Of a stretch of DNA of 64,000 nt, positions 1 to 44,416 are shown in pieces. Position numbers and translations under genes: made by a program. Source of the DNA: Gammaproteobacteria bacterium (GTDB lineage Bacteria > Pseudomonadota > Gammaproteobacteria > Enterobacterales > Kangiellaceae); the NCBI GenBank assembly GCA_013373375.1, contig JABXHY010000018.1, forward strand, positions 43,113-107,112. Reading direction: 5' to 3'. Under the pieces are notes generated by a model. The model worked only from the letters and a program-made list of their open reading frames with translations, searched no databases and was not told the DNA's origin. Position 1 is the first letter of the stretch; each line of letters begins with the position of its first letter.

Positions 1-2
1 GC

Positions 3-1394
3 TTTAATCCTTTCAAAGGCATGGTAGAGCAAAAAGTCATTGTGCCAGAAGAAACCAAAAGTGTAATCAATAGCGCTTTTTCTGGACCCTGCGTTGCTGT
101 CACTAAGATGGGAAATGTATATGTCAGGAAAAATGACAAGTGGAATCCAGTAACTCAACCAAGTCCAATCCGTAAAATTTTACCTGATAGTCATTGTGAA
201 AAACTATGGACTCTTTCTGAGTTTAATCAGAATACAGTGAGTATATATTTGCTGGCTTATGACGAAAAAACAAACAGTTGGGAAAGTAAATTAGTGGAGC
301 AAGAGAATGGCTTTGACATCGAAGATTTCGTTCTGAACTTCCAACAAACACAGCTCGCTGCTTATTTTTATGATGACGTTTATCCTAAAATGAAAAATCA
401 AATTCGCCAATACGCCAGCCTGTCGTCCATCATTCGGACTTTACAACCTCATCCGTATTGGCGCGTAATTGATGGATCTACTGGTGATGGACGCTTTTTA
501 GTTGAAGTACAATCACCAACTCTTTCTCCAACCACTTATCTTGCGGACCTTACGAAAAGGAAACTAGTTAAATTAGATTCGAGATTGAAACAAGCTTCCG
601 ATACCTGGGTGACGACCAGTGCCCTTAAAGTAAAATCGAGTCACTCTTCGGAGTTAGTTGTTTATTTAACATCCTCGAGAGAAAAGGAGGATAAGCAAAA
701 AATCAAACCGCTAATTGTCAAACTGCATGGCGGACCTTTTGAAATTAGAGATCGATGGCGATTTGACCCAGAAGCTCAGTGGTTGGCCAAAAAAGGATTT
801 GATGTCGTCGCCATTAATTATCAGGGCTCAGGTGGTTTTGGTAAAAAGTTTCAATCGGCGGCCTATGGCAAGCTGAGAGATACCTTAGAAGATGATATAG
901 ATAATGTTCTTGATTACTTAGAGGCCAGTTTAGGCTATCAAAGAGAGTCTGCGTGTTTAATGGGCAGCAGTTTCGGCGGTTTTGCCGCTCTGTCTGAATT
1001 AATTGAAAACAATGAGAATTATAAGTGTGGCATTTTAATATCAAGCGTAACCGATCTAAATGGGATCTATCAGTCACTCGATAATCCCGAGGAAAAAGCT
1101 CAATTCGAAGAAAGATTCGGCGATATAACTAGCCATTCGTGGCAAAACGAAAATAATTTGGTTTCCCAAATTGGAGAGTTAAAACGTCCTTTACTGGTCA
1201 TCTACTCAGACGCCGACCCATTAGTGCCGAGTGAGCAAAGTAAGAAATTATTGAAACAATTAGAAGTATTAAATAAGACGCACCAATCTCTAGTACTGAA
1301 CATTAACTCACACAATCTAATTGATGCAGACTCAAGGACAGCAATTTATGAAAAAATAAATGAGTTTTTGTTATCCGTAAACCTAGTCAATTAA
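3..1394 (+). CDS. S9-family (prolyl oligopeptidase-like) serine peptidase, 5'-truncated by the window edge
   Basis: LHGGP, NYQGSGGFG, nucleophile GSSFGG, Asp in DADPLVP and His in NSHNL. The frame is open from base 3, so the ATG at 21 is probably internal. Confidence 0.85.
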   Translation, partial: FNPFKGMVEQKVIVPEETKSVINSAFSGPCVAVTKMGNVYVRKNDKWNPVTQPSPIRKILPDSHCEKLWTLSEFNQNTVSIYLLAYDEKTNSWESKLVEQENGFDIEDFVLNFQQTQLAAYFYDDVYPKMKNQIRQYASLSSIIRTLQPHPYWRVIDGSTGDGRFLVEVQSPTLSPTTYLADLTKRKLVKLDSRLKQASDTWVTTSALKVKSSHSSELVVYLTSSREKEDKQKIKPLIVKLHGGPFEIRDRWRFDPEAQWLAKKGFDVVAINYQGSGGFGKKFQSAAYGKLRDTLEDDIDNVLDYLEASLGYQRESACLMGSSFGGFAALSELIENNENYKCGILISSVTDLNGIYQSLDNPEEKAQFEERFGDITSHSWQNENNLVSQIGELKRPLLVIYSDADPLVPSEQSKKLLKQLEVLNKTHQSLVLNINSHNLIDADSRTAIYEKINEFLLSVNLVN

Positions 1395-2224
1395 CTTTCT
1401 AAGTTAATTTTCTGCAACTGGAATGTTTGCATTTGGTTTGTAATCGGGCATAAAAATTCTATTTTATAGGCGGTAAGTTGCAAGTCCTTATCGGTTGAAG
1501 TGTCTGTGTTATACAGTCGATCACCGACAATCGGAAATCCTTTGCTTGCTAAGTGCTTTCGTATTTGATGTTTACGTCCAGTTTCTATTTTTATTTTTAG
1601 TAAACTGTTTGTTCCTTCGTAATGAATGCATTCAACGTGACTGATGGCTGACTTTCCATCTATTGGAGTGTCTATAGTAACATTGCTATCATATGGCCAC
1701 TTACCAGACACTACCGCTTGATAGTATTTGTCAACTGTTCGAGTGGAAAATAAGTTTGATAATTGACCAGCTGCCTTTTTGCTGTGAGCAATTAAAATTA
1801 AGCCACTGGCGGCTCGATCGAGCCGATGAACAATAAAAGAATTACGTTGCGGCTTTAAGTTTTGTTCTGCCCATCGCGCAATGGTGCAGTGATCTCCCCA
1901 TTTTGAACCTTGACTCAATAGTCCTGACGGCTTATTCCACACACTGTAATCGGACATGTCTTTAATGAGTTCAGGGTTAGGAATAGAGGCACTTAAAACT
2001 TTTGGATCATAATACATATCCAATTGACTGCCCGCTGACAGAACTTTTTTTGCACGACGAACTCGTTGTGTTCTCTTCCCCTGAGTTAGCCACACACAAC
2101 CCTTATTTAGAGCATCTTTGAGTTTTTGTTTTGATAAGGTGCAGTTGCGCGCAAGTGTTTCAATAACTGTTTCATTTGATTCGGTAATTAGAACTTGGAT
2201 TTCGAGTTTCTTCTGGTCAGACAT
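1391..2224 (-). CDS. RluA-family 23S rRNA pseudouridine synthase with N-terminal S4-like region
   Basis: NKPSGL, catalytic HRLDRAASG, IETGRKHQIRKH and GDRLY motifs. Stop overlaps the S9 peptidase stop (TTAA 1391-1394). Confidence 0.9.
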   Translation of the reverse strand: MSDQKKLEIQVLITESNETVIETLARNCTLSKQKLKDALNKGCVWLTQGKRTQRVRRAKKVLSAGSQLDMYYDPKVLSASIPNPELIKDMSDYSVWNKPSGLLSQGSKWGDHCTIARWAEQNLKPQRNSFIVHRLDRAASGLILIAHSKKAAGQLSNLFSTRTVDKYYQAVVSGKWPYDSNVTIDTPIDGKSAISHVECIHYEGTNSLLKIKIETGRKHQIRKHLASKGFPIVGDRLYNTDTSTDKDLQLTAYKIEFLCPITNQMQTFQLQKINLES

Positions 2225-2234
2225 ATTGTATCAA

Positions 2235-4010
2235 TTAAGCTTCTGAGGAAGGGGTATTCCCATCGGTATGGTAATTTTTATATTGCTCCGAGGGCGGTAG
2301 CGCGTATATGTTGACTCGATTACGACCATCACGTTTTGCTTCGTACAACGCATCGTCAGAATGTTTCAGTAGTTTGTCGAGCTCGTATCCCGACACACGA
2401 CTAACGGTTAAGCCAAAACTGGCGGTTATTTGGAACTCTTTACCCGTTTCAGTCGTATTAATTTCCATTAAACCTTTTCGAATGTCTTCTGCAATTTCTC
2501 GTGCTTTATCCAGTTCGCAACCCGGAAGCAGAATAGCGAACTCTTCTCCTCCAAGTCTTCCAAAAATATCGATTTTCCGAATGATATTTTTAATTTTCTC
2601 AGGAATTTTTTGTAATACCCAATCGCCTACGGGGTGACCAAAGGTGTCATTAATATTTTTGAATTTATCGAGGTCAAATAAAATAAAACTCACTGCATCA
2701 GCTCTGCTTTCGCATGCTCTAAGTACGCTTTCACTCTCTGCGGTAAAGTGTCGTCTGTTTGCAATTCCTGTCAAGGAATCGAACTCCGCAAGTTGTCTTA
2801 ATCTTACATGGGTTTTTCGAGTTCGGTAAGCCCACATTATCAAGAAAGTAATGATTATACCCAGCAAAACTATAAATAAGGTTTTTGTTTTTGCTTCTTG
2901 CTTCGACAGTATTTTTTCTAGTGTAAGAGCTTCATTTTTCTTATTTAACAGCTCTATCTGAATGTTTTTCTCTTGAAGCTGATGGCTGGCCGTTTGAATT
3001 GCAATTTGCTTTCTTTTATTTTCATCTAAGTTCAATCGTTCAAATTCGTAGTATTTTTCAAGCAGCTCGACAGATTTTTCACCATTACCTCTGAGTTTTT
3101 CAATTTCATAAAGTGTTTTATAGGCGGAGACCACCGATTTGTAAGGTAGCTTATCTTTGTTTAATGAAATGGTTTTTTTACTTAAAGATTCTGCCGCAGC
3201 ATAACTTTGTTGTTTAAAGTAACTTTGCGCCAGGATATTGTAAAACTCTGCAGTCAATACTGGGTAGCCAATTGACTCAACCACTTTTAAGTGAGGCGCG
3301 AGTAATTCACTGGCCTTTTTATATTGTTTATCCGATAACAGTTTTTTCCCTTTTAAATGACTATTAAACTGTACCCATAACTCTTCGTTAGCTTGTGAGC
3401 ACGTCTCTATTGCTTGCTCAAAAAAAAACTCTTTGTCTTTCAATTCAACACCAGCTTCATTCATCAATGAATATGCCTTGCACTTGACCTTTAAATCTGA
3501 AGATGAGTTTAGCAGGCGCTCAGCATTATTATAGCCTAAACCATACTCACCAAGTTGGTTGTAAAAGCCAGCCTTTATTCCCGACGCATAAGTATTTAAT
3601 TCTTCATTAACTATTTGGTCGAGAAATTCTTGCGCTTCATTAATGAGCAACAATCCTTCCAACCAGTTTTGTGAGATTGTGTAAATATTGACCAGTAAAA
3701 GAGTGGCTTTAGTTTTTATTTCACTTGATGTTGTGTTATTTCTTACTTTTTCAGCCAGCGTTTCTGATTCAGAAATTTGGCCCTGTAAGCTAAACGACAG
3801 CGCTTTTAAGTACAATTGATAATAAAGGAAGTCTTGGTTTGAATGAGTTGAGTAGTCAAGCTGATTAACGGTGGAAATAAATTCTCTTACGTTTTCAGTC
3901 CTTAAATTCTCAATTTCCTTTAAACGTGCAAATGCATTGTCATTTTCGGAGGCAAAAGCTGCCTCCGAAAATGACAAATATAACAAAAAAATGAATAGTC
4001 GGTTGATCAA
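2235..4010 (-). CDS. Membrane-anchored diguanylate cyclase with periplasmic TPR-like helical sensor
   Basis: N-terminal signal peptide (MINRLFIFLLYLSFSEAAFA), ~350 aa helical repeat region, one TM (FIVLLGIIITFLIMWAY), then DSLTGIANRR, DLDKFKNINDTFGH, RKID I-site and GGEEF. TTG start overlaps the upstream stop (TTGA). Confidence 0.88.
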   Translation of the reverse strand: MINRLFIFLLYLSFSEAAFASENDNAFARLKEIENLRTENVREFISTVNQLDYSTHSNQDFLYYQLYLKALSFSLQGQISESETLAEKVRNNTTSSEIKTKATLLLVNIYTISQNWLEGLLLINEAQEFLDQIVNEELNTYASGIKAGFYNQLGEYGLGYNNAERLLNSSSDLKVKCKAYSLMNEAGVELKDKEFFFEQAIETCSQANEELWVQFNSHLKGKKLLSDKQYKKASELLAPHLKVVESIGYPVLTAEFYNILAQSYFKQQSYAAAESLSKKTISLNKDKLPYKSVVSAYKTLYEIEKLRGNGEKSVELLEKYYEFERLNLDENKRKQIAIQTASHQLQEKNIQIELLNKKNEALTLEKILSKQEAKTKTLFIVLLGIIITFLIMWAYRTRKTHVRLRQLAEFDSLTGIANRRHFTAESESVLRACESRADAVSFILFDLDKFKNINDTFGHPVGDWVLQKIPEKIKNIIRKIDIFGRLGGEEFAILLPGCELDKAREIAEDIRKGLMEINTTETGKEFQITASFGLTVSRVSGYELDKLLKHSDDALYEAKRDGRNRVNIYALPPSEQYKNYHTDGNTPSSEA

Positions 4011-4219
4011 GCTTGCTTCTCTTCTTTTTCGGGTATCTCGCTTGGCTCTTCTTGCGGAGTCTCCTCTGTTTCATCATCATCCTCTGCTGGTGCAATCATA
4101 CAAACGATGTCTGGTAGTGATTTTTTGTACAGCTCGAGCTCTTCAGGAGATAACTCAGTAATACTTTTGTTGGTCAGAGTCTTTTCACCAAGTTCTTCGA
4201 GTAACTTTATAACATTCAT
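4007..4219 (-). CDS. Split-borosin RiPP precursor peptide (short helical leader, DIVCMIAP core, acidic follower)
   Basis: 70 aa directly downstream of the borosin methyltransferase with SD AAGGA. N-terminal LLEELG helix, hydrophobic core I38-A45, and 13 Asp/Glu among residues 46-67. Confidence 0.8.
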   Translation of the reverse strand: MNVIKLLEELGEKTLTNKSITELSPEELELYKKSLPDIVCMIAPAEDDDETEETPQEEPSEIPEKEEKQA

Positions 4220-4238
4220 GCGCTTTTCCTTTTGGATT

Positions 4239-5027
4239 TTAATTGATGACTTTCAAAGAGTGTTTTTGCTTTTTTTTTCTAGGTATTAATTTTTTCGAAG
4301 GAGGAATTATTAATGTCGATTTCTGTGATAGTTGTTGAACACTCAGTTCCGATAATTTGCAAGTCAATTGTATCGCATTTTCAACGGCATTCGATGCTGC
4401 CTCGTAAACAATTACTTTATGGTCGAGAGGAAAGTCTTCTGCCAGTAAATCGGTTAGTTCTAACAAATGTTGTTCATTTTTATTCAACTGGGTATGGCTT
4501 TTATCACCTGCAGCCATCACTTGCCATAAAATTAGATAAGCCGTTGGGTCGATGTTTCTTTGGTAAAACATGAACTGACTGGCTTCAAAATGTTGGCAGC
4601 CGTATTTACCGGGATCAATACCTAAGTCGGCGTATAAACAGTCTGCAGCTGAGATACCTGGCAACATTATTGCTTCGAATCCTTCTGCTTTTGCTTGTAG
4701 AATAGCTTTGTGAGAAGGATTAACAAAAACACCTGGATGACCATAAAAAGCAGCGACCGCCTTTTTACCTTGTCGTACTGGTGTTAGTAATGCTTCGGTC
4801 ATTTCTTGATAGGTGATCTTGCGTGACTTACCTTTATTGTAATACTGCTGTAAAGATACAACATTTGGATGAATGTCTTTTAGCCATAATTCAAAGAGAG
4901 AATCTGAAGATGCAGCAAATACAATATCAGCGCTCTTTAGGGCGTGGCGAGCGATTGGCGTTATGTGTGCACCTATTGTGATGCCGACGCCAAGACATAT
5001 CAAACTGCCTCGATTTCCCTCATTCAT
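4239..5027 (-). CDS. Borosin-type SAM-dependent backbone alpha-N-methyltransferase (OphMA/SonM-like)
   Basis: GSLICLGVG, QQYYNKGKSRKITYQEM (catalytic Y/R/Y as in OphMA YYDNGKSRLNTY), FYGHPGVFVNPSH, LPGISAADCLYADLGIDP, GCQHFEASQF. ATG 5027 preferred over TTG 5042. Confidence 0.9.
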   Translation of the reverse strand: MNEGNRGSLICLGVGITIGAHITPIARHALKSADIVFAASSDSLFELWLKDIHPNVVSLQQYYNKGKSRKITYQEMTEALLTPVRQGKKAVAAFYGHPGVFVNPSHKAILQAKAEGFEAIMLPGISAADCLYADLGIDPGKYGCQHFEASQFMFYQRNIDPTAYLILWQVMAAGDKSHTQLNKNEQHLLELTDLLAEDFPLDHKVIVYEAASNAVENAIQLTCKLSELSVQQLSQKSTLIIPPSKKLIPRKKKQKHSLKVIN

Positions 5028-5091
5028 GAAAATGTACTTCAATTGGATTCACTTTTTGATGCGCCATGATGCAATAAAAATGTGAACTATT

Positions 5092-5607
5092 TCAAATAGT
5101 TTCTTTGATTTTTGAGTAAAGTTGTACATCGCTGGGAGTATTTTTTTCACAATTTGACTTAACAGGTTCAAAACCCAGTCGATTAATCAGTTTTATTCCT
5201 GCTTTATTGGCTACCTTTAGATTTGCAAAAATATTGTTCAGACTAAGCTTATCGAAACCATAGGTCACTACGGCCGATACACAATGAAAAGCAATCCCTT
5301 TTCCTTGCGCCTCTCGTTGCAGAATAATGCCGATTTCTGCTGACCGCTTAGATAAACTTAAATCTTTAAATGCGATAAATCCAAGGGGAGTTGTTGTGTT
5401 ATTCCTGCAAAGAACAAACATCATGTAGTTGGCTGCAGATTTTTGGGTCGCTGTTAGGGTGGTGAGAAAGGCCGATTTTGCTTGTGCAGTGTTTAGCTCG
5501 ACTCCGGTGTATTTCATTAGTTGAGGGTCGGTATAAGTTTGAATATAAAACTTTTCATCTTCAGCTTTTAACTCGCGAAATGTGACTCGGTCTGTTTTGA
5601 AATACAT
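5092..5607 (-). CDS. RimJ/RimL-type GNAT N-acetyltransferase
   Basis: MYFKTDRVTFREL start typical of Acetyltransf_3, AEIGIIL, acetyl-CoA loop QGKGIA, NKAGIKLINRLGF. ATG 5607 preferred over TTG 5628. Confidence 0.8.
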   Translation of the reverse strand: MYFKTDRVTFRELKAEDEKFYIQTYTDPQLMKYTGVELNTAQAKSAFLTTLTATQKSAANYMMFVLCRNNTTTPLGFIAFKDLSLSKRSAEIGIILQREAQGKGIAFHCVSAVVTYGFDKLSLNNIFANLKVANKAGIKLINRLGFEPVKSNCEKNTPSDVQLYSKIKETI

Positions 5608-5909
5608 AAGGTTATAACGCTTTTGCAAAACGCTCGATGTTTGGAAGTGGGTAATTTTACTAAATGCTAACCCAAGCTTATGTTGAGGTCATCAATTCCT
5701 TGGTCGAATCTTGCTTAAAAAGTGGGCCTGACGTAAGATCATGCCCCTTTTTATTCAGGGGTGTGAGGCGCAATTAAGTCGACCATTTGCTTGTTTTGTA
5801 GGTAAAGTTTTTTGAGCTGGCTGTACAAAAATAGAGCAAGGTAATCGAGCACACCAACCATTCCCTGATTGTTTAATGATAAGACAAAGTTAATTTTGAC
5901 AGGATTTTT

Positions 5910-7691
5910 ATGATGATGCGCAGTCACTATTGTGCCGACTTAGTCGGATTACCGGAAACTTCCGAAGTCGCTATTGCTGGCTGGGTTCATCGTCGACGAG
6001 ATTTGGGCGGGCTAATCTTTTTACAAATACGCGATCGAAGTGGCATTGTTCAGGTGACGATTGAACCAGACCAAGGTGATGTGTTCGAAGCTGCAGATGA
6101 ATTGCGCAGCGAGTATGTGGTTTTAGTCAAAGGTAACATTCGCAATCGACCTGAAAATATGGTGAATCAAGACATGGTGACTGGCGCTATAGAAGTGGTT
6201 GCCAGCTCAATTGAGTGCCTAAACAAGTCAGAAACACCCGCGATTTTGATTGACGGTCATGAAGATGTCGCTGAGGAAACGCGTCTTAAATATCGCTATC
6301 TGGATTTACGTCGCCCTGAAATGGCGAAAAAGTTTTTATTTCGTACGAAGCTAACTTCAGCACTGCGCCGATATTTGGACGCTGAAGGCTTTTTGGATAT
6401 GGAGACGCCCATTTTAACGAAAGCGACTCCTGAAGGTGCGCGTGATTACTTGGTTCCAAGTCGCACGCACAAAGGTTCTTTTTTCGCATTACCGCAATCA
6501 CCTCAGCTTTTTAAACAATTGTTAATGATGAGTGGTTTCGATCGCTATTACCAAGTCGTCCGCTGCTTTCGTGACGAAGATTTGCGCGCCGATCGTCAGC
6601 CAGAATTTACCCAGCTCGATATCGAAACTTCGTTTATGGACGAAGAGGGGATCATGGGGCTTATGGAAAACATGATTCGAAGCGTGTTCAAAGAAATGCT
6701 GGATGTTGAGCTACCAAATCCATTTCCACGTATGCCTTACAGTCAAGCGATGGAAAAATACGGTTCCGACAAACCTGACTTACGAGTTGATATGCCGATC
6801 CACACGGTTGACGACATAATGCAGTCGGTCGACTTCAAAGTATTCAGCGGGCCCGCTAACGATACAGAAGGAAGAGTAGGTGTTCTTAATCTTAAAGGCG
6901 GCGCAGAACAAGTCAGCCGAAAGAAAATAGACGAGTACACCAAGTTTGTCGGTGTGTATGGAGCTAAAGGATTAGCGTTCATTAAAGTGAACGATCGAGC
7001 AGCAGGCATTGAAGGTTTACAGTCGCCAATTGTTAAGTTTCTTACACCAGACGTTGCTGAGCAATTATTGGAACGTGTTGGCGCTGAAACAGGTGATATT
7101 CTGTTTTTTGGATCGGATAACTCGAGAGTGGTTGCCGACGCACTTGGCGCGCTGCGTTTAAAATTAGCAAATGATTTCGAGTTGTTGAGTAATCAATGGA
7201 AACCATTATGGGTCGTCGACTTTCCAATGTTTGAAGAAGATGATGGTCAATTGCAAGCGCTTCATCATCCATTCACTTCGCCAAAAGAGCTTGATCCGGA
7301 AGCGCTTAAAGCTAATCCGACCGGTACATTGTCGCGAGCTTACGACATGGTATTGAACGGTTGTGAAGTGGGCGGTGGTTCAACTCGTATTCATAACACA
7401 GACTTGCAACAAACCATTTTTGAAATATTGGGAATTTCAGAAACCGAAGCACGAGAAAAGTTTGGCTTTTTACTTGATGCGCTTAAGTTTGGTTGTCCGC
7501 CACATGGCGGGATTGCGTTTGGTTTGGATCGACTAGTTATGTTAATGGTTGGGGCTTCGTCAATTCGTGATGTTATTACCTTTCCGAAAACAACAACAGC
7601 AGCTTGTCCACTAACCGAAGCGCCAGCAAAAGTGTCTGACGCGCAGTTGAGTGAATTAGGCATTGAGTTAAAAAAGAAATCGGCGGAATAA
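5910..7691 (+). CDS. aspS: Aspartate--tRNA ligase
   Basis: MRSHYC start, [54 protein letters not shown]. Probably the non-discriminating Asp/Asn type common in this context (not determined). Confidence 0.98.
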
Positions 7692-7700
7692 AAAGTAACC

Positions 7701-7739
7701 CTAGGATTTTAACAAAGGAGTCAAACAAAGGAGTTAAGT
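7701..7739 (+). repeat. 13-bp tandem duplication containing the Shine-Dalgarno (AACAAAGGAGT x2) plus a third AGGA
   Basis: AACAAAGGAGT at 7711-7721 and 7724-7734, AGGA at 7703-7706, yebC ATG at 7740. Confidence 0.8.
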
Positions 7740-8483
7740 ATGGCTGGACATAGTAAATGGGCCAATATAAAACACCGAAAAGCCGCGCAAGACGCTAAAC
7801 GTGGAAAGATCTTTACCAAGATCATTCGTGAACTGGTGGTCGCTGCGAAATCTGGCGGACCTAATCCAGAAGATAATCCAGGACTGAGAGCCTGTATTGA
7901 TAAAGCGCTTGGCGCGAACATGAAAAAAGACACCATTGAAAAGGCTATCGCACGTGGTGCTGGCAATACCGATGGTGACAACTATGAAAATTTAACATAT
8001 GAAGGTTATGGGCCTGGTGGTGTAGCGGTTCTGGTTGAGTGTTTGACCGATAATAAAAATCGCACGGTTGGAGAAGTCAGACACGCGTTTACCAAGCATG
8101 GCGGAAATTTAGGCACATCAGGATCCGTCGCCTACCTTTTTGATAAAAAAGGCCAGATGATTTTCGGTGATGACATCGAAGAAGATTCTCTTATGGAAGC
8201 AGCTCTTGAGTCAGGAGCTGAGGACGTCGTTACGCATGATGATGGTTCTTTTGAAGTGTTGACGACTCCTGAAGAATTCATGACCGTTAAAGATGGTATT
8301 GTGGCAGCGGGCTTCAAACCTGAAAATTCGGAAGTTGCTATGTTGCCCTCTACCCAAGCGGAGCTAGAAGCTGAAGATGGAGCAAAAGTATTACGTTTAG
8401 TTGAGCGTCTGGAAGATTTAGATGACGTGCAAAATGTTTATACTAACGCAGACATTCCAAGTGAAGCCTACGAATTACTTTAA
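7740..8483 (+). CDS. yebC: YebC/PmpR family protein
   Basis: [45 protein letters not shown]. Canonical aspS-yebC-ruvC position. Confidence 0.97.
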
Positions 8484-8534
8484 TTTTTACCGAGTTGTGG
8501 TGTCGGTCGAACTTAGATATTGAACTGAACTTAT

Positions 8535-8572
8535 AAAACCTCGATAAGCCAATCGCAGTCGAGGTTTTTTTT
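8535..8572 (+). terminator. Rho-independent terminator after yebC
   Basis: AAAACCTCGA (8535-8544) / TCGAGGTTTT (8559-8568) stem followed by a T run. Confidence 0.7.
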
Positions 8573-8666
8573 ATGCCCGTTCGTGATACCTTAAAGCTAA
8601 CCACTAAGCATTTATTTTTTTGAGACTGTGATTACCCGTATGCAACTGAGTGTTAAAGAGTAATTT

Positions 8667-9185
8667 ATGGCAATTATTTTGGGGATCGATCCGGGCTCAA
8701 GGATTACTGGCTTTGGCATTATTGAAGCTCAGGGAAGCAAGATTCGGTATGTCACCAGCGGTTGTATCAAAATTAAAGAAGCACCGTTATCTGAAAAGCT
8801 GTTGCAAATTTACGATAATCTGTCAGAAGTGATTCGAAAATACAATCCGACAGAGGCCGCTATTGAGCAGGTTTTCATGGCAAAGAACGCGGACTCCGCA
8901 TTAAAATTAGGGCAAGCCAGAGGCGTTGCTATGGTTGCCGCTGCCAATCATGCGTTGTCCGTTGCGGAATATTCGGCGCGACAAATTAAACAAGCTGTTG
9001 TGGGAACCGGCGGCGCGGATAAAGCACAAGTACAACATATGGTGACATCACTGCTATCGTTATCAGCGCAACCGCAAAGCGACGCAGCTGATGGCTTAGC
9101 TGTCGCGATTTGTCACTGCAATACAATGCAATCAATGGTAGCCCAAATGGGTGCCAATAAAAGAAGAAGAGGGCGAGTACGTTGA
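8667..9185 (+). CDS. ruvC: Holliday junction resolvase
   Basis: [34 protein letters not shown]. Confidence 0.97.
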
Positions 9186-22452: not shown

Positions 22453-25400
22453 CTATTCTTGGTGATGCTTAATAAATTCAATTGTCTCCTCGCGAGACAT
22501 TGGTTTTGCGAAGTAGTAACCTTGTACGCTGTCTGCTCCGAATTCTCGAACGAAATCTAATTGCTCAGCAGTTTCTACACCCTCAACGACGCTAGTTTTT
22601 TGCAATGACTTGGCCAAATCTATAATCGTTTTGATAATAGTTTCAGCTTCTTTCTGTTCGCCAATTCGCGCCACAAAGCTTCGATCAATTTTGAGCTTTT
22701 CAATTGGAAGTTGGTGTAAATATTTTAATGACGAATACCCAGTACCAAAATCATCCAGTGCGAGATCAATTCCAATCTTCTTTAGCTTTCGTATTAAAGT
22801 TAATGCCACTTCCATATCCGTCATCAGCATACTTTCTGTAAGTTCAAACTCAAGCGCTCCAGGTTGAATCTGGTAATGTGCTAGCCTTTCTTTCATATAA
22901 AGGTCAAAATCATTTTGCTTAAAATGCCGAGCAGATAAATTAACCGCCAGTCCTATTTCAAAATCATGACTATGCCATAATTGTAGCGTTTCAAGCGCAA
23001 GCTCGATCAGCTGTTCAGTTAGCGGAATAATTAGTCCAATCTCTTCAGCCACAGGAATAAAGTCTATCGGTGAAATTATCTCGTTATTACTTCGTTGCCA
23101 GCGCGCCAGTGCTTCAAATCCTGCTATTTTGTTTGTATGAAGGTCGATTTGTGGTTGATATAGAAGGGTAAACTCATTGTTCTTTATTCCTTCTCGTATC
23201 ATTTTTTCCATCGACATACGATTGATAGCTTCATCATTCATTGAAGCAATGAAGTACTTAAAATTATTTCGCCCAGAATTTTTTGCATGATACATTGCCA
23301 TGTCAGCATGTTTTAAAATTATATTGGCTTCACTCCCGTCGTCAGGAAAAACAGAAATTCCAATACTGGGTGACGAATTTACTTCATGCTCTCCGATTGT
23401 AAGAGGCGAAGCCATTTTTTCTAATATTGTATTGGCGATACGACTTGCAGTATCTATGGAGTAAATATCTTCGAGCATTACAACAAACTCATCACCACCA
23501 AGTCTTGCTACTGTATCGTTTCGACGAACTGCACTTTTTAAAATTCCGGAAACTGCTATTAAAAGTCTATCACCTACTTCGTGACCTAGTGAGTCATTCA
23601 CTTGTTTAAACCGATCGAGATCAATGAAAAATACCGCAACCATTTGCTTTCGACGCTGTCCATTCTCAATTGCATGTGTTATTCGATCCATCAGTAATGC
23701 GCGATTGGGCAAACCAGTAAGCGGGTCATAATTGGCTAAACGTTTTAACTCTTCTTGAGCGGCTTTTTGCTCACTGATATCAGTGGCACTAATGACGTAA
23801 TAGACTTCAGAGTCATTATTTTTGAATTTATTAACGCTTACCAGTACTGATAGAGGCTCTTGATATTTTCTTAAAACTAACCCTTCAGTTTCAAATTCAT
23901 TGTTTGACTCCAGCCGGTGCTTCATTGTTTGTGCAATGGGTAACTGTGAGTCTGGATTGACAAGGACCGACAATGGCTTTTCTACCACTTCATTAAGATC
24001 GATACCTGTGGTGTTGAAAAACGAGTGGTTGGTCACTTTTACATTAAATACTTTGTCGAGAATAATAATAATGTCTCGAGTGTTGTCGAATGCCTCAAAG
24101 AATAAATCCATTTTATCTTGTGTTGACTTGGTATCTGTAATATCAGTGAAAGTTCCTGTGACCCTTATAGGATCTTTATTACTGTTGACTTCCGTTACTT
24201 TTGCTAAGTCGCGATACCAACACCACTCATCTTGCTGGTTTTTGAGGCGGTATACATGTTCGAACGATGAATCTGGTTGAGATAAAAACCTTCTCCACTT
24301 GGCTGAGTAAGCGTCTTTATCGTCTGGATGAATGAAATTGATTTTTTCACTCAAGTTTATGGCATCATTTTCATTTTCGACTAAATGATTTAGTCGCGGT
24401 TCAAAGATCTCGTCATTTTTTGCATGCCAATCCCACATACCACTATTTGATCCATTAAGTGCTAACTGCAGTCTTTCTTCATTGGAAGCTAATATTGTGT
24501 TGGTTTGAAGGAGATATTTTTGCCGACGATAGCGTTGATATCCAATAGTTGAGATGATTGCAAGAGCAACTAGCACATAGGTGGTTAGCGCAATAGGTGA
24601 TAGCCAAGGTGCTGGATGGTTGACTATAGACAATACATAAGGTTCTGATAACTCACCATTAGTGTAGTCCACTGCTGCAATATAGAGTTTGCTTTTGCCT
24701 GGTTTAAACTTTGGAAATAAAAGAGTGTTATTAAATGTTGAAGTAATCTGAGTGGCTGAGTCTCCCTCTATCCAGTAATCGTATTTTACCTGTTCCGTTT
24801 TATTAAATAGTCGTGCTGAGTATTCGATGTTTAAACCAAAGTCATCATACTCAAGTTCAATGGTATTGGCGTCAGAATAATTTCGATTACCTTTTGATAG
24901 TAAAGAGACTTTGCTAGGCATAACATTAATAACATGATTATGCTCGATATCAAGTCTTTGCAAGTCGATAAATACCACCCCGCGAGTTGTACCAAATGCC
25001 CAGTTATCGTCATTTATATTTACAGTAGTGCCACCAATAAACTCATTACTGATTAAGCCATCTGTTTTTGAAAATTTTTGATTGCTGTAATTCTCACGAT
25101 TGATTTTTATTAGACCGTCATTACTGGTGACCCAAACAAAATTTTCATCGTAGGTAAAAACATCCAGAAAATTACTAGTGTTAAGTTCAGTAGGTGGAAT
25201 GATTTTCAGTGTTTCGCTCGAATCGACATCTACAATGTAGAGCCCAAGTCCTGAATAGTTTATCCAATACTGGTTATCTACTTTAAGTATTGATTGTGGA
25301 ACAGCTTGGGTTGAGTCATCTTTTTTCAGTTCGTGCAAGACTTTAGTTTGTTGAGTGGTTCGGTCATAAGTGACAACAGAGTTATACTTAGCAAAAAATA

Positions 25401-26952
25401 GTTGATTGGTCGAAGGTTCACTTTTCAAGATAAATTGAAATGCATTATCGCCTTTTTGCTGTGTTAGGCCTTCTATTTCACTAAACTCTCCCGATTCAAC
25501 ATTGAATAAGAAAACGTCTTCGTCCTGCAGTACGAGCAAGTTATCTTCATCGACCGGTGAAACAAAGTAAGTTGTTTTGTTTAATCGTTTAGTTTGTTCT
25601 GGTGTTAGTACAAGTTCAACTTCTGACTGGTCATTTTTGTTTAATAGTTTAATGCCTTTTGTTCGATGTAATATTGTTCGAGAAGGGCTAGTGAATATCT
25701 GATAAATTGACTCATCGCTAAAAGGTGATTTTTCATCTTTGTTAACGAAATACTGTTCAGTTGTGTCATCAATTAAATTGTATTTCGCCAGACCATGAGT
25801 CGTACCAATCAATAAATGATTTTCGTCTAGTTTACGCATAGCATAAACATTATTACTCGGTAGGCGTTGTGGCGTGCCTCGTTGATTGGATATTATGCCC
25901 GTTACGGCTCGGTTCGGTCGCCATTTAAAAAAGCCGTCTTCTCGACTACTGAGCCATAGATTTTCTTCGCGATCGACAAATAAACGCGTTATATCATTAT
26001 CGTAAAGTTGGTAAGGCGTGTCGGAGTATCGAATTAAATGTGAAAGCTTATTGTTTTCATCGATAAAATAGAGCCCATTGTCGGTTGCTGCATAAATGGT
26101 GTCATCGTAATCAATCATATGCCAAATATTTCGACTGGCGTTTACTTCATAAATTGAGTCCGCTGTTATCTCTTCATTCCGCTCCAGAGATGACATTATG
26201 GAATTTAGGGTAATTCGATATAGTCCTTCTACGGTTGCGATGTAGATGTAACCCTGATTAAAGTTGAAAATTCCTTTAACATTGTTTTCATCGGAGTTTG
26301 GCGGCGCTATGGTATGGTTTAGCTTTCGAAAGACACGGTTTTTTAAGTCATAGGAGAACAAGCCAACTGAAGTTCCAATGAGTAAATAGTTTTTTATGCG
26401 ATATATGGATCGGATGATGTCCTGATCACCGACGTTACCAGGCAGGTCTGTTATTTGGAATAAATAAGAATATTGATCACTTGCTCGATCGTATTGGTAG
26501 ACTTGATACAGGCTTATTAGCCATAGATTATTTTGGTTGTCTTCATATACTTCAGTTATCCTTTGGGCTGAAGTTTTTTCGCTCATACCTTTAGGAAGTG
26601 TAACCGCTGTAAAGGATTCTGTTTCGGGTTGATAGCGATAATTTTTATTTCTCCCGCCACTTACCCAAGTTTCGCCTTCTTTATCAGTGTAGAGCAAAGT
26701 GATGTAGGCCGCGTTGAAAGCATCTGTCGGGCCGTTGACGGGTCGTACATCATAAGCGTCGTATCGGTTAAGTCCCTCTTCTGTCCCAATCCACAAATAT
26801 CCCGCTTTGTCTTGAGTTAGCTCCCATACGACGCTCTGACTTAATCCGTCTTGAGTTGATATATGTTCGAGCTGTATTGGAGCGGATATCGAGTAACCGA
26901 TCTGAGGGGCTATAAGTGTACAAAAAATGCTCAGAAAGACATATTTTTTCAT
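22453..26952 (-). CDS. Membrane sensor GGDEF-EAL protein: periplasmic Reg_prop beta-propeller, TM, PAS domains, GGDEF and EAL
   Basis: Signal peptide, DGLSQSVV...QDKAGYLWIGTEEGLNRYD propeller repeats, TM (PWLSPIALTTYVLV), PAS (IHPDD...WYRD), RRND I-site with GGDEF, EALARW, DDFGTGYSSL, EGVE, QGY. Confidence 0.92.
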   Translation of the reverse strand: MKKYVFLSIFCTLIAPQIGYSISAPIQLEHISTQDGLSQSVVWELTQDKAGYLWIGTEEGLNRYDAYDVRPVNGPTDAFNAAYITLLYTDKEGETWVSGGRNKNYRYQPETESFTAVTLPKGMSEKTSAQRITEVYEDNQNNLWLISLYQVYQYDRASDQYSYLFQITDLPGNVGDQDIIRSIYRIKNYLLIGTSVGLFSYDLKNRVFRKLNHTIAPPNSDENNVKGIFNFNQGYIYIATVEGLYRITLNSIMSSLERNEEITADSIYEVNASRNIWHMIDYDDTIYAATDNGLYFIDENNKLSHLIRYSDTPYQLYDNDITRLFVDREENLWLSSREDGFFKWRPNRAVTGIISNQRGTPQRLPSNNVYAMRKLDENHLLIGTTHGLAKYNLIDDTTEQYFVNKDEKSPFSDESIYQIFTSPSRTILHRTKGIKLLNKNDQSEVELVLTPEQTKRLNKTTYFVSPVDEDNLLVLQDEDVFLFNVESGEFSEIEGLTQQKGDNAFQFILKSEPSTNQLFFAKYNSVVTYDRTTQQTKVLHELKKDDSTQAVPQSILKVDNQYWINYSGLGLYIVDVDSSETLKIIPPTELNTSNFLDVFTYDENFVWVTSNDGLIKINRENYSNQKFSKTDGLISNEFIGGTTVNINDDNWAFGTTRGVVFIDLQRLDIEHNHVINVMPSKVSLLSKGNRNYSDANTIELEYDDFGLNIEYSARLFNKTEQVKYDYWIEGDSATQITSTFNNTLLFPKFKPGKSKLYIAAVDYTNGELSEPYVLSIVNHPAPWLSPIALTTYVLVALAIISTIGYQRYRRQKYLLQTNTILASNEERLQLALNGSNSGMWDWHAKNDEIFEPRLNHLVENENDAINLSEKINFIHPDDKDAYSAKWRRFLSQPDSSFEHVYRLKNQQDEWCWYRDLAKVTEVNSNKDPIRVTGTFTDITDTKSTQDKMDLFFEAFDNTRDIIIILDKVFNVKVTNHSFFNTTGIDLNEVVEKPLSVLVNPDSQLPIAQTMKHRLESNNEFETEGLVLRKYQEPLSVLVSVNKFKNNDSEVYYVISATDISEQKAAQEELKRLANYDPLTGLPNRALLMDRITHAIENGQRRKQMVAVFFIDLDRFKQVNDSLGHEVGDRLLIAVSGILKSAVRRNDTVARLGGDEFVVMLEDIYSIDTASRIANTILEKMASPLTIGEHEVNSSPSIGISVFPDDGSEANIILKHADMAMYHAKNSGRNNFKYFIASMNDEAINRMSMEKMIREGIKNNEFTLLYQPQIDLHTNKIAGFEALARWQRSNNEIISPIDFIPVAEEIGLIIPLTEQLIELALETLQLWHSHDFEIGLAVNLSARHFKQNDFDLYMKERLAHYQIQPGALEFELTESMLMTDMEVALTLIRKLKKIGIDLALDDFGTGYSSLKYLHQLPIEKLKIDRSFVARIGEQKEAETIIKTIIDLAKSLQKTSVVEGVETAEQLDFVREFGADSVQGYYFAKPMSREETIEFIKHHQE

Positions 26953-41000: not shown

Positions 41001-41035
41001 GATACGAAATATAACTCTGACATTTGGAGACGGTT

Positions 41036-44000
41036 ATGGCCGACAAAGCAGTTCCTTACCAATCTACTAACAAAGTCCGTGTTGTAACTGCGGCATCTTT
41101 GTTTGATGGTCACGACGCAGCGATCAATATTATGCGTCGGATTATTCAGTCAACGGGCTGTGAGGTTATACACCTTGGACATAATCGCTCTGTTCAAGAA
41201 ATCGTCGACTGTGCGATACAAGAAGATGTTCAAGCAATAGCAATGACATCCTATCAAGGTGGGCATGTTGAATATTTGAAGTATATGTACGACCTGCTCA
41301 ATGAAAGAGGCTGCGGGCATATTAAATTATTTGCAGGCGGCGGCGGTGTCATTTTACCGGAAGAAATTAAAGAACTGCACGACTACGGTATAACCAAAGT
41401 TTACTCGCCAGATGATGGGAGAGAGCTTGGTTTGCAAGGCATGATCAATGATTTGGTCAAACGTTCTGATTTCCCGACCGGTGATAGTTTAGATAATGAA
41501 CAGAAGAACCTTTCACCACAAAACCCAAACGCTATTGCGAAGTTGATTTCTGCTGCAGAAAACTATCGAAATGATAATAGTGATCTTTTTGCAGATATAA
41601 AAAAATCAGCAGACGCATCGAAAACTCCAGTGCTGGGTATCACCGGAACCGGAGGCGCTGGAAAGTCATCATTGGTAGATGAACTGGTGCGTCGCTTCCT
41701 ATTAGATTTTCCGGAAAAAAATATAGCGATAATTTCTGTGGATCCATCGAAACGAAAAACGGGCGGAGCTTTACTCGGTGATCGTATCCGAATGAATGCA
41801 ATTAACTCTGATCGTGTTTACATGCGCTCCCTTGCCACTCGTCAATCTAACTTAGCTTTATCTCCACACGTACAGGACGCAGTGAATATCGTAAAGTCTG
41901 CAGGATTTGATCTGGTTATTTTAGAGACGTCAGGCATTGGCCAATCGGATACCGAAATCGTTGAGCATTCGAATATGTCGATGTATGTCATGACTCCTGA
42001 ATTTGGTGCCGCAACTCAATTAGAAAAAATTGATATGCTTGATTTTGCGGATATTGTCGCAATTAATAAGTTCGATAAACGTGGAGCACTGGACGCACTG
42101 CGGGATGTAAAAAAGCAGTATCAACGTAATAATAATTTGTTCGAGAAAAATGCTGACGAAATGCCTGTGTACGGGACAATTGCGAGCCAATTTAATGATC
42201 CTGGTACCAATGCACTTTATAAAGCCATTATGGATACTTTAGTCGTCAAAACGGGTGTTGAGTTAAATTCGAATTTTGAAATTACAGATGAGATGTCAGA
42301 GAAGATTTACATTATCCCTCCAAAACGAACTCGTTATTTGGCAGAAATAGCTGAGAACAATCGTAAGTATGATGAGTGGGTAATTGAACAGGCTGAGATT
42401 GCAGAAAAGCTCTATGGTTTAAATAACTCAATCGAAACCATAAATGAAATGTCAGACTCTAATGGTGACGTTGTGCCACAGCTTAAAAAGGTCTATGAAG
42501 ACATTGATCTGAAGCTTGATGGTCAAAACAAAAAAATTCTAGAAGACTGGCCAACTAAAAAAGAAGCATACCAAGCAGATGAGTTTGTGTACCAAGTTCG
42601 TGGCAAAGACATAAAAGTACAAACAAAAAGCGAGTCTTTGGCTCATAATAAAATACCCAAAATATCGGTTCCTAAATATCGTAGTTGGGGTGATGTTTTG
42701 AAGTGGAATTTGCAAGAAAATTTTCCTGGAGAATTTCCCTATACAGCCGGTGTTTTCCCATTTAAAAGAGAAGGTGAAGATCCAACTAGAATGTTTGCTG
42801 GAGAGGGCGGCCCAGAAAGAACTAACCGACGCTTTCACTATGTGTCATTAGGTATGCCCGCAAAACGATTGTCAACAGCTTTTGACTCGGTAACTCTTTA
42901 CGGTGAAGATCCTGATTTTCGACCTGATATTTACGGTAAAATTGGAAATTCAGGCGTATCAATTTGCTGCCTTGATGATGCCAAAAAATTGTATTCTGGT
43001 TTTAATCTTGCAGATCCCAAAACATCTGTTTCAATGACTATTAATGGACCTGCGCCAATTTTAGTTGGCTTTTTTATGAATGCAGCAATCGATCAACAAT
43101 GCGAAATTTATATTAAAGAGAACGGCATTGAATCTGATGTAAAACAAAAAATCGAATCTATCTATAAGGAAAAAGGACAGCCGGTTCCGACTTATCAAGG
43201 AGAGCTACCCGAAGGTAACGATGGACTTGGTTTAATGTTACTCGGCGTGACAGGCGATCAAGTATTGCCAAAAGATGCATATGAAAAAATAAAAGCAGAA
43301 ACGTTAAGTGCTGTACGTGGAACGGTTCAAGCCGATATTCTAAAAGAAGACCAAGCGCAAAATACTTGTATTTTTTCAACTGAATTTGCACTTCGTCTAA
43401 TGGGAGATGTTCAAGAATATTTTATTGATCATAATGTTCGCAATTTTTACTCAGTATCTATTTCGGGTTATCACATTGCCGAAGCAGGTGCGAACCCTAT
43501 TTCTCAACTAGCATTTACCTTAGCAAATGGATTTACCTTTATTGAGTATTATCTGGCTCGTGGCATGGATATCAATAAATTTGCTCCAAATTTCTCGTTC
43601 TTTTTCTCAAACGGAATGGATCCAGAGTATGCCGTAATGGGACGCGTTGCGCGCCGAATTTGGGCGAAAGCACTCAAGCTTTTATATAAAGCGGATCCTA
43701 GAGCACAAATGCTCAAGTATCATATTCAAACATCTGGTCGCTCGTTACATGCTCAAGAAATTGACTTTAATGACATTCGAACCACGCTTCAGGCGTTATA
43801 TGCAATTTACGATAACTGTAATTCATTGCACACCAACGCATATGATGAAGCGATCACAACTCCTACTGAAGAGTCAGTACGCCGCGCGATGGCGATACAG
43901 TTGATTATTAATCGTGAACTTGGTTTAGCGAAAAACCAGAATCCGCTTCAGGGAGCATTCATAATTGAAGAGTTAACTGATTTGGTCGAAGAAGCGGTTC

Positions 44001-44416
44001 TTATGGAGTTTGAAAGAATTTCTGAGCGAGGTGGTGTATTAGGTGCGATGGAAACTATGTATCAGCGTTCCAAAATACAAGAAGAATCATTGTATTATGA
44101 AACGCTGAAACACACAGGTGAACTACCGATTATAGGTGTTAATACATTCTTGTCTTCCAAAGGCTCTCCGACAACGATTCCGCAAGAAGTTATTCGTTCA
44201 ACTAAAGAAGAAAGAGAATATCAAATTCAAACCGTTGCTTCGCAGCACGATCGTTTTGCAAACGAAGGTGAGCAAGTGATTGAAAAAGTGCAGCAAGCTG
44301 CATTACAAAACCAAAATATTTTCAATGAGCTTATGGAAGCAACTAAATATTGTACACTTGGCCAAATCTCTGGAGCTCTTTATCAGGTAGGTGGTCAATA
44401 CAGACGTAATATGTAA
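41036..44416 (+). CDS. icmF: Fused isobutyryl-CoA mutase/MeaB GTPase (AdoCbl dependent)
   Basis: B12-binding [73 protein letters not shown] 41036. Confidence 0.95.

What the first reader, a model, noticed from the sequence alone, without database searches (positions are those of the whole stretch)
4007..4219. Precursor with a shortened leader, proline-bracketed core (P|DIVCMIAP|) and acidic follower
Seen: only ~35 residues precede the single hydrophobic stretch I38-A45. Pro36 and Pro44 bracket D37-P44 (DIVCMIAP, nt 4088-4111), and 13 of residues 46-67 are Asp/Glu. Established: SonA-type precursors have a multi-helix borosin-binding domain with a C-terminal core, and OphMA cores are released by a prolyl oligopeptidase. 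Inference: the leader looks too short for a full binding domain, the core is internal, and post-proline cleavage on both sides would release a Cys/Met-containing octapeptide.
Basis: partly seen in the sequence, partly recalled or inferred. Interest (0 to 1): 0.7.

Follow-up and report, generated by a model that had tools for sequence, protein, structure and literature searches.

The report
SamA1-type borosin precursor with short leader
This 70-residue gene encodes a precursor peptide for a backbone-methylating enzyme. It belongs to an already described marine-bacterial family whose studied member is cut just before the second proline to release the acidic tail, not an octapeptide between the two prolines.

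Summary
It lies on the minus strand (4219->4007): P36, DIVCMIAP, P44, and 13 Asp/Glu among residues 46-67. The ORF is real. It sits 19 nt after a SonM/SamM1-type alpha-N-methyltransferase, and I found 24 homologues. In every locus long enough to show it, the order is methyltransferase, small ORF, TPR-GGDEF gene.

The motif aligns in exact register with SamA1 of Shewanella amazonensis (P46-DVFCVFF-P54-AED against P36-DIVCMIA-P44-AED). In SamA1, Phe52 is N-methylated, the pepsin-like peptidase SamP cuts Phe53|Pro54 (before the proline), and the acidic tail PAEDEPEK... is found in cells. By analogy I predict methylation near Ile42, a cut at Ala43|Pro44, and release of the 27-residue acidic tail, possibly acetylated by the adjacent GNAT.

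P44-Ala-Glu is the best conserved element of the family (24/25, 22/25, 25/25 acidic). P36 is kept in 18/25 and C40 in 15/25. The nearby S9 peptidase is not syntenic elsewhere, carries a signal peptide and is not a prolyl-oligopeptidase type.

The short two-helix leader is real but shared by other members. No SamP homologue lies in the window. This is a new member of a known kind.

The parts
4007..4219 (-). Precursor peptide gene (70 aa plus stop), SamA1-type type IV split-borosin precursor
   Evidence: homologues; alignment A4; register with SamA1
4178..4213 (-). Leader helix 1 (residues 3-14). It carries the family N-terminal motif M-x-x-I-x-x-L-E-x-x-G, which is also recognisable in SonA
   Evidence: AF2 model; L7 nearly invariant in A4
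4118..4147 (-). Leader helix 2 (residues 25-34). A block of about 20 residues present between the two helices in the 85-92 aa homologues is absent here
4091..4114 (-). P36-DIVCMIA43 hydrophobic patch: predicted substrate of the methyltransferase (Ile42 is equivalent to the methylated Phe52 of SamA1) and predicted recognition element for the maturation peptidase
   Evidence: 0 non-synonymous changes against L018
4082..4090 (-). P44-A45-E46 junction, the most conserved element of the family. The predicted scissile bond A43|P44 lies immediately upstream (SamP cuts F53|P54 in SamA1)
   Evidence: P 24/25, A 22/25, acidic 25/25
4010..4090 (-). Acidic tail P44-A70 (27 aa; 13 D/E, 2 K, 4 P; pI about 4.05; about 3.1 kDa): predicted released peptide
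   Evidence: the SamA1 tail PAEDEPEKEQQENEEEDEAPKA was detected in cells
4239..5042 (-). Borosin alpha-N-methyltransferase (267 aa from TTG; a gene caller gives 262 aa from the ATG at 5027). PF00590 family, SonM/SamM1 homologue with YGHPG and DCLYAD motifs. The Tyr/Arg/Tyr residues equivalent to SonM Y58/R67/Y71 are conserved
   Evidence: SonM E=2.5e-68; SamM1 50% identity, no gaps, E=6e-95; invariant columns
5092..5628 (-). GNAT acetyltransferase (PF13302, RimJ/RimL-like), first gene of the operon. The same family is found in the sam cluster and in L001, L004, L005, L006, L013, L024 and L025
2235..4010 (-). Signal peptide - TPR - one transmembrane helix - GGDEF diguanylate cyclase (GGEEF plus RxxD I-site). 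Its TTG start overlaps the precursor's TGA stop. A homologue follows the precursor in every locus long enough to show it
   Evidence: son cluster description in PMC10549244
3937..3977 (-). Perfect 18-bp hairpin about 30 nt after the precursor stop, inside the GGDEF 5' coding region. Possible processing or attenuation element that separates precursor mRNA level from GGDEF expression
   Evidence: dG -31.5, z -6.9; 0/121 background segments fold as well; also an outlier in L002, L005, L010, L011

Best explanation
The ORF encodes a SamA1-type precursor of a type IV 'split' borosin pathway. It belongs to a four-gene minus-strand operon: GNAT, alpha-N-methyltransferase, precursor, TPR-GGDEF. Proposed mechanism, with each step marked. 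(1) The two-helix leader (residues 1-35) docks on the SonM/SamM1-like methyltransferase dimer. This is inferred from SonM-SonA structures; the leader here is a minimal version. (2) The enzyme methylates one or a few backbone amides in the hydrophobic patch D37-A43, most likely Ile42. This is inferred from exact register with the methylated Phe52 of SamA1. (3) The methylated patch serves as a recognition element for an endopeptidase that cuts Ala43|Pro44, on the N-terminal side of the invariant proline. This is inferred from methylation-dependent cleavage of SamA1 at Phe53|Pro54 by the pepsin-like peptidase SamP. The peptidase is not encoded in this window. (4) The released species is the highly acidic 27-mer PAEDDDETEETPQEEPSEIPEKEEKQA, possibly N-acetylated by the co-encoded PF13302 GNAT (inferred; unproven even in the model system). 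(5) The universally linked, start/stop-overlapping TPR-GGDEF gene suggests a link to c-di-GMP signalling (speculative). Shown here: sequence homology, synteny, and the conservation and selection pattern. Not shown: any chemistry on this particular peptide.
For: The enzyme is a SonM homologue (E=2.5e-68) and a SamM1 homologue (50% identity, gap-free over 246 aa, E=6e-95), with catalytic and signature residues invariant in 18 family enzymes. The SamA1 sequence from the paper's supplement aligns in register: P46-D-V-F-C-V-F-F-P54-A-E-D against P36-D-I-V-C-M-I-A-P44-A-E-D (BLASTP 7/12, pairwise E=2e-4; alignment A4). Across 25 members P44 is 24/25, A45 22/25, position 46 acidic 25/25, P36 18/25 and C40 15/25. 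Codons 36-50 show 7 synonymous and 0 non-synonymous changes, against 7 and 20 in the leader. Published experiments on SamA1 show Phe52 methylation, the SamP cut at Phe53|Pro54, the tail PAEDEPEK... found in cells, and a PF13302 GNAT in the cluster. Five related loci have A1 peptidase - GNAT - MT - precursor - GGDEF (L001, L004, L005, L006; L024, with the short-leader precursor P0010). Ala is the commonest residue before the junction Pro (8/25), including in L005 and L024, which encode the A1 peptidase.
Against: No A1 aspartic peptidase lies in the 64-kb window (best tblastn E=0.66; no ORF with two D[TS]G motifs) or within 10 kb either side on the source contig. The rest of the genome could not be searched. 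SamP cleaved a SamA1 Phe-Phe to Ala-Ala variant only weakly, and this precursor has Ile-Ala at those positions. The authors state that the final sam natural product is not established. Direct sequence similarity to SamA1 is limited to the 12-residue junction, and the precursor has no significant match to SonA. There is no expression or mass-spectrometry evidence for this locus, and no RNA runs exist.
Confidence: 0.62

Rival explanations
1. The core is the octapeptide D37-P44. A prolyl oligopeptidase-type enzyme (for example the neighbouring S9 peptidase) cuts after P36 and after P44 and releases a methylated, perhaps acetylated, DIVCMIAP.
For: Both prolines exist and are conserved (P44 24/25, P36 18/25). 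An S9 peptidase gene lies 2.6 kb away. No A1 peptidase is encoded nearby. Fungal omphalotin maturation uses the S9A peptidase OphP, which accepts Pro or N-methyl residues at P1 (PMC12235650).
Against: In the characterised homologue the cut is before, not after, the junction proline, and it is made by an aspartic peptidase. The S9 gene is on the opposite strand and absent from all 16 related genome loci. It has a Sec-type signal peptide, whereas the methyltransferase has none and the shewasin-type peptidase is reported to be cytosolic. Its best PDB matches are acylaminoacyl-peptidase and DPP-IV catalytic domains (E about 4e-13), with a prolyl oligopeptidase only at 2e-6. P36 is Ser, Glu, Lys, Asn or Thr in 7/25 members. 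The invariance of A45 and E46 after the proline fits a P1'-P3' recognition site better than a discarded follower.
Confidence: 0.06
2. SonA-like outcome. The mature product keeps the methylated patch. A single cut upstream (around P36) yields a C-terminal peptide made of the methylated hydrophobic segment plus the acidic tail, analogous to shewanellamide A (SonA 56-71), with no cut at the junction. This would fit a genome that lacks SamP.
For: Shewanellamide A is the C-terminal 16-mer that still carries its two N-methyl groups, and its cluster encodes no protease. This window also encodes no SamP homologue. Patch and tail are both under purifying selection.
Against: The precursor is far closer to SamA1 than to SonA in the relevant region. 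The invariant P-A-E junction is unexplained by this model. Short-leader members with the same junction do co-occur with the A1 peptidase (L024). The literature notes that such clusters can have the peptidase encoded distally.
Confidence: 0.15
3. The ORF is a chance open frame or a non-RiPP small acidic protein unrelated to the methyltransferase.
For: No Pfam, NCBIfam or PDB match for the 70-aa product. The acidic tail is of low complexity.
Against: Its position between the methyltransferase and the GGDEF gene is conserved in every locus long enough to show it. The synonymous versus non-synonymous pattern indicates selection on the protein. The motif is identical in register to an experimentally validated substrate.
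Confidence: 0.02

Closest known systems
SamA1 / SamM1 / SamP (shewasin A) pathway of Shewanella amazonensis SB2B (bioRxiv 10.1101/2024.01.09.574750)
   Same: Stand-alone borosin methyltransferase (50% identical). Small precursor with an N-terminal helical leader. P-D-(I/V)-x-C-x-hydrophobic-x-P-A-E-D motif in exact register. Strongly acidic, proline-containing tail. PF13302 GNAT in the cluster.
   Different: The leader before the first proline is 35 residues rather than 45 (two predicted helices). The residues before the cut are Ile-Ala rather than Phe-Phe. No pepsin-like A1 peptidase gene lies at the locus or within the 64-kb window. Nothing has been tested experimentally here.
SonA / SonM of Shewanella oneidensis MR-1 (shewanellamide A; PMC8429565, PMC10549244)
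   Same: Type IV split architecture. The methyltransferase is a close homologue of a solved structure (E=2.5e-68). The gene order MT - precursor - GGDEF is the same. The precursor length is similar (70 against 71 aa), and the N-terminal helix motif is similar.
   Different: SonA has a five-helix binding domain (1-53) and a C-terminal core whose methylated residues stay in the 16-mer product. It has no P-A-E junction, no acidic follower and no GNAT. The SonM side-clamp loop is 3 residues longer. The window's precursor has no significant sequence match to SonA.
OphMA / OphP omphalotin pathway (fungal type I borosin; PMC12235650)
   Same: Homologous methyltransferase domain (E about 1e-44). Backbone N-methylation of a hydrophobic stretch.
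   Different: In OphMA the enzyme and core are fused, the core is multiply methylated, and an S9A prolyl oligopeptidase macrocyclises it. Here the enzyme and precursor are separate. The only S9 peptidase nearby is an exported, non-syntenic enzyme resembling S9B/S9C types.

Membership tests
Type IV split borosin (SonM/SonA kind) | Stand-alone borosin alpha-N-methyltransferase of about 260 aa (PF00590) with YGHP and DCL(F/Y)AD motifs and the catalytic Tyr/Arg/Tyr | tested here: met
   FYGHPG and ADCLYAD are present. Y68/R74/Y78 (267-aa numbering) align with SonM Y58/R67/Y71 and are invariant in 18 family enzymes.
Type IV split borosin (SonM/SonA kind) | Separate small precursor gene adjacent to the methyltransferase | tested here: met
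   The 70-aa ORF starts 19 nt after the methyltransferase stop. All 16 related genome loci have the same arrangement.
Type IV split borosin (SonM/SonA kind) | N-terminal helical borosin-binding domain on the precursor (five helices in SonA) | tested here: inconclusive
   Only the N-terminal helix motif aligns with SonA, and there is no significant phmmer hit to SonA. AF2 predicts two helices, not five (mean pLDDT 70).
Type IV split borosin (SonM/SonA kind) | Backbone alpha-N-methylation of the precursor by the cognate enzyme | not testable with these tools
   Needs co-expression and LC-MS/MS.
SamA1-type subgroup (methylated recognition patch plus acidic C-terminal peptide) | Hydrophobic patch followed by a P-A-E-(D/E) junction, in register with SamA1 P46...F52-F53|P54-A-E-D | tested here: met
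SamA1-type subgroup (methylated recognition patch plus acidic C-terminal peptide) | Strongly anionic C-terminal tail | tested here: met
   13 D/E against 2 K in 27 residues, pI about 4.05. Tails of other family members carry 4-28 D/E.
SamA1-type subgroup (methylated recognition patch plus acidic C-terminal peptide) | PF13302 GNAT acetyltransferase in the cluster | tested here: met
   Window 5092-5628, E=9e-24. Homologous GNATs lie upstream of the methyltransferase in L001, L004, L005, L006, L013 and L024, and between the methyltransferase and P0004 in L025.
SamA1-type subgroup (methylated recognition patch plus acidic C-terminal peptide) | Pepsin-like A1 aspartic peptidase (PF00026) in the cluster or elsewhere in the genome | tested here: inconclusive
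   Absent from the 64-kb window and from 10 kb either side on the source contig. Present in L001, L004, L005, L006 and L024. The rest of this organism's genome could not be searched.
SamA1-type subgroup (methylated recognition patch plus acidic C-terminal peptide) | Methylation-dependent cleavage N-terminal to the junction proline | not testable with these tools
   Needs an in vitro assay with methylated and unmethylated precursor.
Omphalotin-type, prolyl-oligopeptidase-processed borosin | S9A prolyl oligopeptidase belonging to the cluster | tested here: not met
   The S9 gene (window 1-1394, 621 aa in the source contig) is on the opposite strand and absent from all 16 related genome loci. It carries a signal peptide. 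Its best matches are acylaminoacyl-peptidase and DPP-IV, over the catalytic domain only.
Omphalotin-type, prolyl-oligopeptidase-processed borosin | Methyltransferase fused to its own core peptide | tested here: not met
   Enzyme and precursor are separate genes in different reading frames.

The most novel reading that the evidence does not exclude
This lineage has the shortest leader class and no clustered SamP, so maturation could differ from the model system. A different protease might act, and the released peptide (the acidic 27-mer, or a Cys/Met-containing methylated fragment) might not be an antibiotic. It could instead be the cognate ligand of the periplasmic TPR sensor of the start/stop-overlapping diguanylate cyclase. 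That would make it a RiPP-type autocrine signal controlling c-di-GMP. The precursor-GGDEF linkage seen in every sufficiently long locus and the exceptional hairpin between the two coding regions are compatible with this but do not demonstrate it.
Probability: 0.12. Interest if true: 0.7.

Novelty: new member of a known kind. Interest (0 to 1): 0.3.

Why it matters
It corrects a plausible but wrong reading: here the proline marks the P1' side of an aspartic-peptidase site, not a post-proline cut. It also places this marine metagenomic locus in the SamA1-type borosin group, where backbone methylation is thought to license proteolysis rather than decorate the product. Two modest points are useful to the field. 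First, a natural two-helix leader of about 35 residues, seen in several lineages and once next to the full peptidase-GNAT-methyltransferase set, suggests a minimal docking unit for borosin methyltransferases. Second, the P-A-E junction is conserved more strongly than the leader, the cysteine or the first proline, which gives a simple sequence rule for predicting cut sites and products in this subgroup.

Tried and rejected
Family size therefore rests on the single-sequence search, the genome scan with the methyltransferase and one exhaustive HMMER job with a two-sequence profile.
(3) phmmer of the precursor against PDB chains gave no SonA hit, only low-complexity noise.
(4) A search for a SamP homologue in the window found nothing, by motif scan or by tblastn with three family A1 peptidases.
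(5) Expression evidence is unavailable. Only DNA runs from seawater and mangrove metagenomes hold the locus, and there are no RNA runs.
(6) Rfam at gathering threshold gave 0 hits on the window. The promoter and terminator consensus scan found nothing above shuffled expectation and no terminator on the minus strand.
(7) P0007, a 556-aa repeat protein, matched the profile only through a chance 'PDAVCLLAP' repeat and was discarded.
(8) The island's GC content (38.0% against 40.4% for the window) is too close to support horizontal transfer.
(9) A Pfam survey of 20 further ORFs in the window found housekeeping genes only, with no protease or dedicated exporter.
Full report
OBSERVATION. The feature is on the minus strand. 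Window 4219->4007 is a 70-codon ORF, MNVIKLLEELGEKTLTNKSITELSPEELELYKKSLPDIVCMIAPAEDDDETEETPQEEPSEIPEKEEKQA. P36 and P44 bracket DIVCMIAP (nt 4088-4111), and 13 of residues 46-67 are Asp/Glu. About 35 residues precede the only hydrophobic stretch. Every number in the finding is correct.

CONTEXT. The ORF lies in a minus-strand operon. The genes are a GNAT acetyltransferase (5628-5092, PF13302), a PF00590 methylase (5042-4239), the small ORF after a 19-nt spacer with an AGGA about 7 nt before its ATG, and a signal-peptide/TPR/transmembrane/GGDEF protein (4010-2235). The TTG start of the GGDEF gene overlaps the small ORF's TGA stop. The methylase is an unambiguous borosin alpha-N-methyltransferase. 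It matches SonM at E=2.5e-68 and OphMA-type enzymes at about 1e-44, and it has the YGHPG and DCLYAD signatures. The Tyr/Arg/Tyr residues that align with SonM Y58/R67/Y71 are invariant in 18 family enzymes. The published son cluster of S. oneidensis is SonM-SonA-GGDEF-efflux pump (PMC10549244). GGDEF is the commonest companion domain of split borosin clusters, at 56% (bioRxiv 10.1101/2021.12.24.474128). Flanking genes are housekeeping: aspS, yebC, ruvCAB and tolQRAB on one side, a rluA-like gene on the other.

THE ORF IS REAL AND BELONGS TO A FAMILY. A database search returned one relative, P0002, which is 54% identical by BLASTP and identical over PDIVCMIAPAEDDDE. Scanning one genome per species with the methyltransferase gave 16 loci in Shewanella, Colwellia, Thalassotalea, Paraglaciecola and Neptunicella, with enzymes 50-55% identical. 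All 16 have a 58-92-aa ORF directly after the methyltransferase, and 15 then show a TPR-GGDEF gene; L007 ends too early to tell. An exhaustive HMMER search with a two-sequence profile added P0003-P0006 and P0008-P0010. Between the window and L018 (P0002), codons 36-50 differ by 7 synonymous and 0 non-synonymous changes. The leader differs by 7 synonymous and 20 non-synonymous changes, and the distal tail by 6 and 5. Selection therefore acts on the protein, most strongly on the patch and junction.

WHAT THE FAMILY LOOKS LIKE. Members share an N-terminal helix motif (M-x-x-I-x-x-L-E-x-x-G), which is also recognisable in SonA. They then have a leader of variable length, a short hydrophobic patch, a proline, and an acidic tail (alignment A4). 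Counted over 25 members without SonA, P44 is 24/25 and the exception is a one-residue shift. A45 is 22/25 and position 46 is Glu or Asp in 25/25. P36 is 18/25, D37 15/25 and C40 15/25 (Ala in 9). Seven members have a second Cys just before P36 (C-P-D-I-V-C); the window has Leu there. The number of residues before the first proline falls into classes: about 35 in the window and P0002, about 36-37 in P0003-P0006 and P0010, 45 in SamA1, and about 55-57 in the Colwellia, Shewanella and Thalassotalea forms. The short forms lack a block of about 20 residues. AlphaFold2 on a 9-sequence alignment gives two helices (3-14, 25-34) and coil thereafter, with mean pLDDT 70. SonA's binding domain has five helices (PMC8429565). 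The 'shortened leader' is therefore real, but it is a recurrent natural class, not a peculiarity of this locus.

THE DECISIVE COMPARISON. Lee et al. (bioRxiv 10.1101/2024.01.09.574750) characterised SamA1, SamM1 and SamP of S. amazonensis. SamM1 places one alpha-N-methyl on Phe52. SamP (shewasin A), a pepsin-like A1 peptidase, then cuts Phe53|Pro54 efficiently only when the precursor is methylated. The unmethylated tail PAEDEPEKEQQENEEEDEAPKA was detected in extracts of the native host. The cluster also encodes a PF13302 acetyltransferase. The SamA1 sequence from their supplement is MNQAVEILAKLGSNTAVSLDALPAHIAAMIEAKDIQALKAELDVTPDVFCVFFPAEDEPEKEQQENEEEDEAPKAVNA. Its P46-D-V-F-C-V-F52-F53-P54-A-E-D lines up residue for residue with the window's P36-D-I-V-C-M-I42-A43-P44-A-E-D. 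The window's enzyme aligns with SamM1 without a gap at 50% identity. Five related loci, L001, L004, L005, L006 and L024, carry a PF00026 peptidase directly upstream of GNAT-MT-precursor-GGDEF. L024 holds the short-leader precursor P0010, so a short leader is compatible with that machinery.

MECHANISM PROPOSED. The two-helix leader docks on the methyltransferase. The enzyme methylates the patch, most likely at Ile42. The methylated patch licenses an endopeptidase to cut Ala43|Pro44. The 27-residue acidic peptide P44-A70 is released; it has 13 D/E, 2 K, 4 P, a pI of about 4.05 and a mass of about 3.1 kDa. The GNAT may acetylate it. Only homology, synteny and selection are shown here, and each chemical step is inferred from SamA1 or SonA. 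Ala is the commonest residue before the junction proline in the family (8/25), including in L005 and L024, which encode the peptidase. That softens the concern that a SamA1 Phe-Phe to Ala-Ala variant was a poor SamP substrate.

In the characterised homologue the cut is before the proline, it is made by an aspartic peptidase, and the product is the tail. The S9 peptidase near the locus (window 1-1394; 621 aa in the source contig) is on the opposite strand and absent from all 16 related genome loci. Its N-terminus, MSKIKKLKQSARMQLIFRSLFSVFLLVHAAQSFA, looks like a Sec signal peptide. It matches acylaminoacyl-peptidase and DPP-IV catalytic domains best (4e-13), with a prolyl oligopeptidase only at 2e-6. 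The fungal S9A enzyme OphP acts as a macrocyclase on multiply methylated hydrophobic cores (PMC12235650), which is a different architecture. The prolines are conserved and methylation is expected within 37-45. But the processing it predicts does not match the model system.

WHAT REMAINS OPEN. No SamP homologue lies in the window (best tblastn E=0.66) or within 10 kb either side. [quoted passage not shown] If no such peptidase exists, a SonA-like outcome is the main rival: a product that keeps the methylated patch, as in shewanellamide A. The final sam product is itself unsettled, and no later paper in the library resolves it. The source is a small seawater metagenome run with no RNA data, so expression is unknown.

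LIMITS OF THE SEARCHES. Family counts therefore come from 25 sequences gathered by three narrower routes.

VERDICT. The locus is a new member of the known SamA1-type group of type IV split borosins. It is notable only for the shortest leader class and for lacking a clustered peptidase.

Noticed in passing
window 3937-3977 (minus strand): A perfect 18-bp stem with a 5-nt loop (dG -31.5 kcal/mol, z -6.9) lies about 30 nt after the precursor stop, inside the signal-peptide coding part of the GGDEF gene. No U-run follows it. None of 121 other 160-nt segments of the window folds as well. Comparable outliers sit at the same place in L002, L005, L010 and L011, but not in L001, L003, L004, L006, L008, L009 or L013-L015.
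   Followed up: partly
window 4007-4012: The precursor's last codon and stop (GCT TGA) overlap the TTG start of the TPR-GGDEF gene (GC-TTG-A), which suggests translational coupling. The GGDEF protein has GGEEF and an RxxD I-site five residues upstream.
   Followed up: partly
window 1-1394; L019 12826-14691: The window's start cuts the S9 peptidase gene. The full product is 621 aa with a Sec-type signal peptide, and a Sel1-repeat gene lies next to it. It is judged unrelated to the borosin operon.
   Followed up: yes
L013 (Colwellia psychrerythraea GAB14E) 1-9050: Two borosin methyltransferase genes lie in tandem in one locus, with three GNAT-like hits and two GGDEF genes. The region around the first methyltransferase was not examined for its precursor.
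   Followed up: no
L025 925-2006: The gene order differs here: methyltransferase, a 54-aa precursor-like ORF (MSNIIKQLETIGQNAKLRY...KAFLILPENDCKAVMVVGE), GNAT, then the 64-aa precursor P0004. That gives two different precursors for one enzyme.
   Followed up: no
alignment A4, column of window L35: Seven of 25 family members have a second cysteine immediately before the first proline (C-P-D-I/V-V-C), which could form a disulfide or bind a metal. The window and P0002 have Leu or Val there, leaving a single Cys.
   Followed up: no
window 22453-26952 (minus strand): A 1499-aa protein with Reg_prop repeats, PAS domains, GGDEF and EAL. It is a second, much larger c-di-GMP enzyme 18 kb from the borosin-linked GGDEF gene.
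   Followed up: no
window 41024-44416 (plus strand): A 1130-aa fusion of a B12-binding domain, a MeaB-like GTPase and a methylmalonyl-CoA-mutase domain (IcmF-like architecture).
   Followed up: no
window 55411-56553 (minus strand): A 380-aa protein with a CvpA (colicin V production) domain and a C-terminal DUF4124. It lies next to cysG (53704-55278), which accounts for the weak second TP_methylase hit in the window.
   Followed up: no
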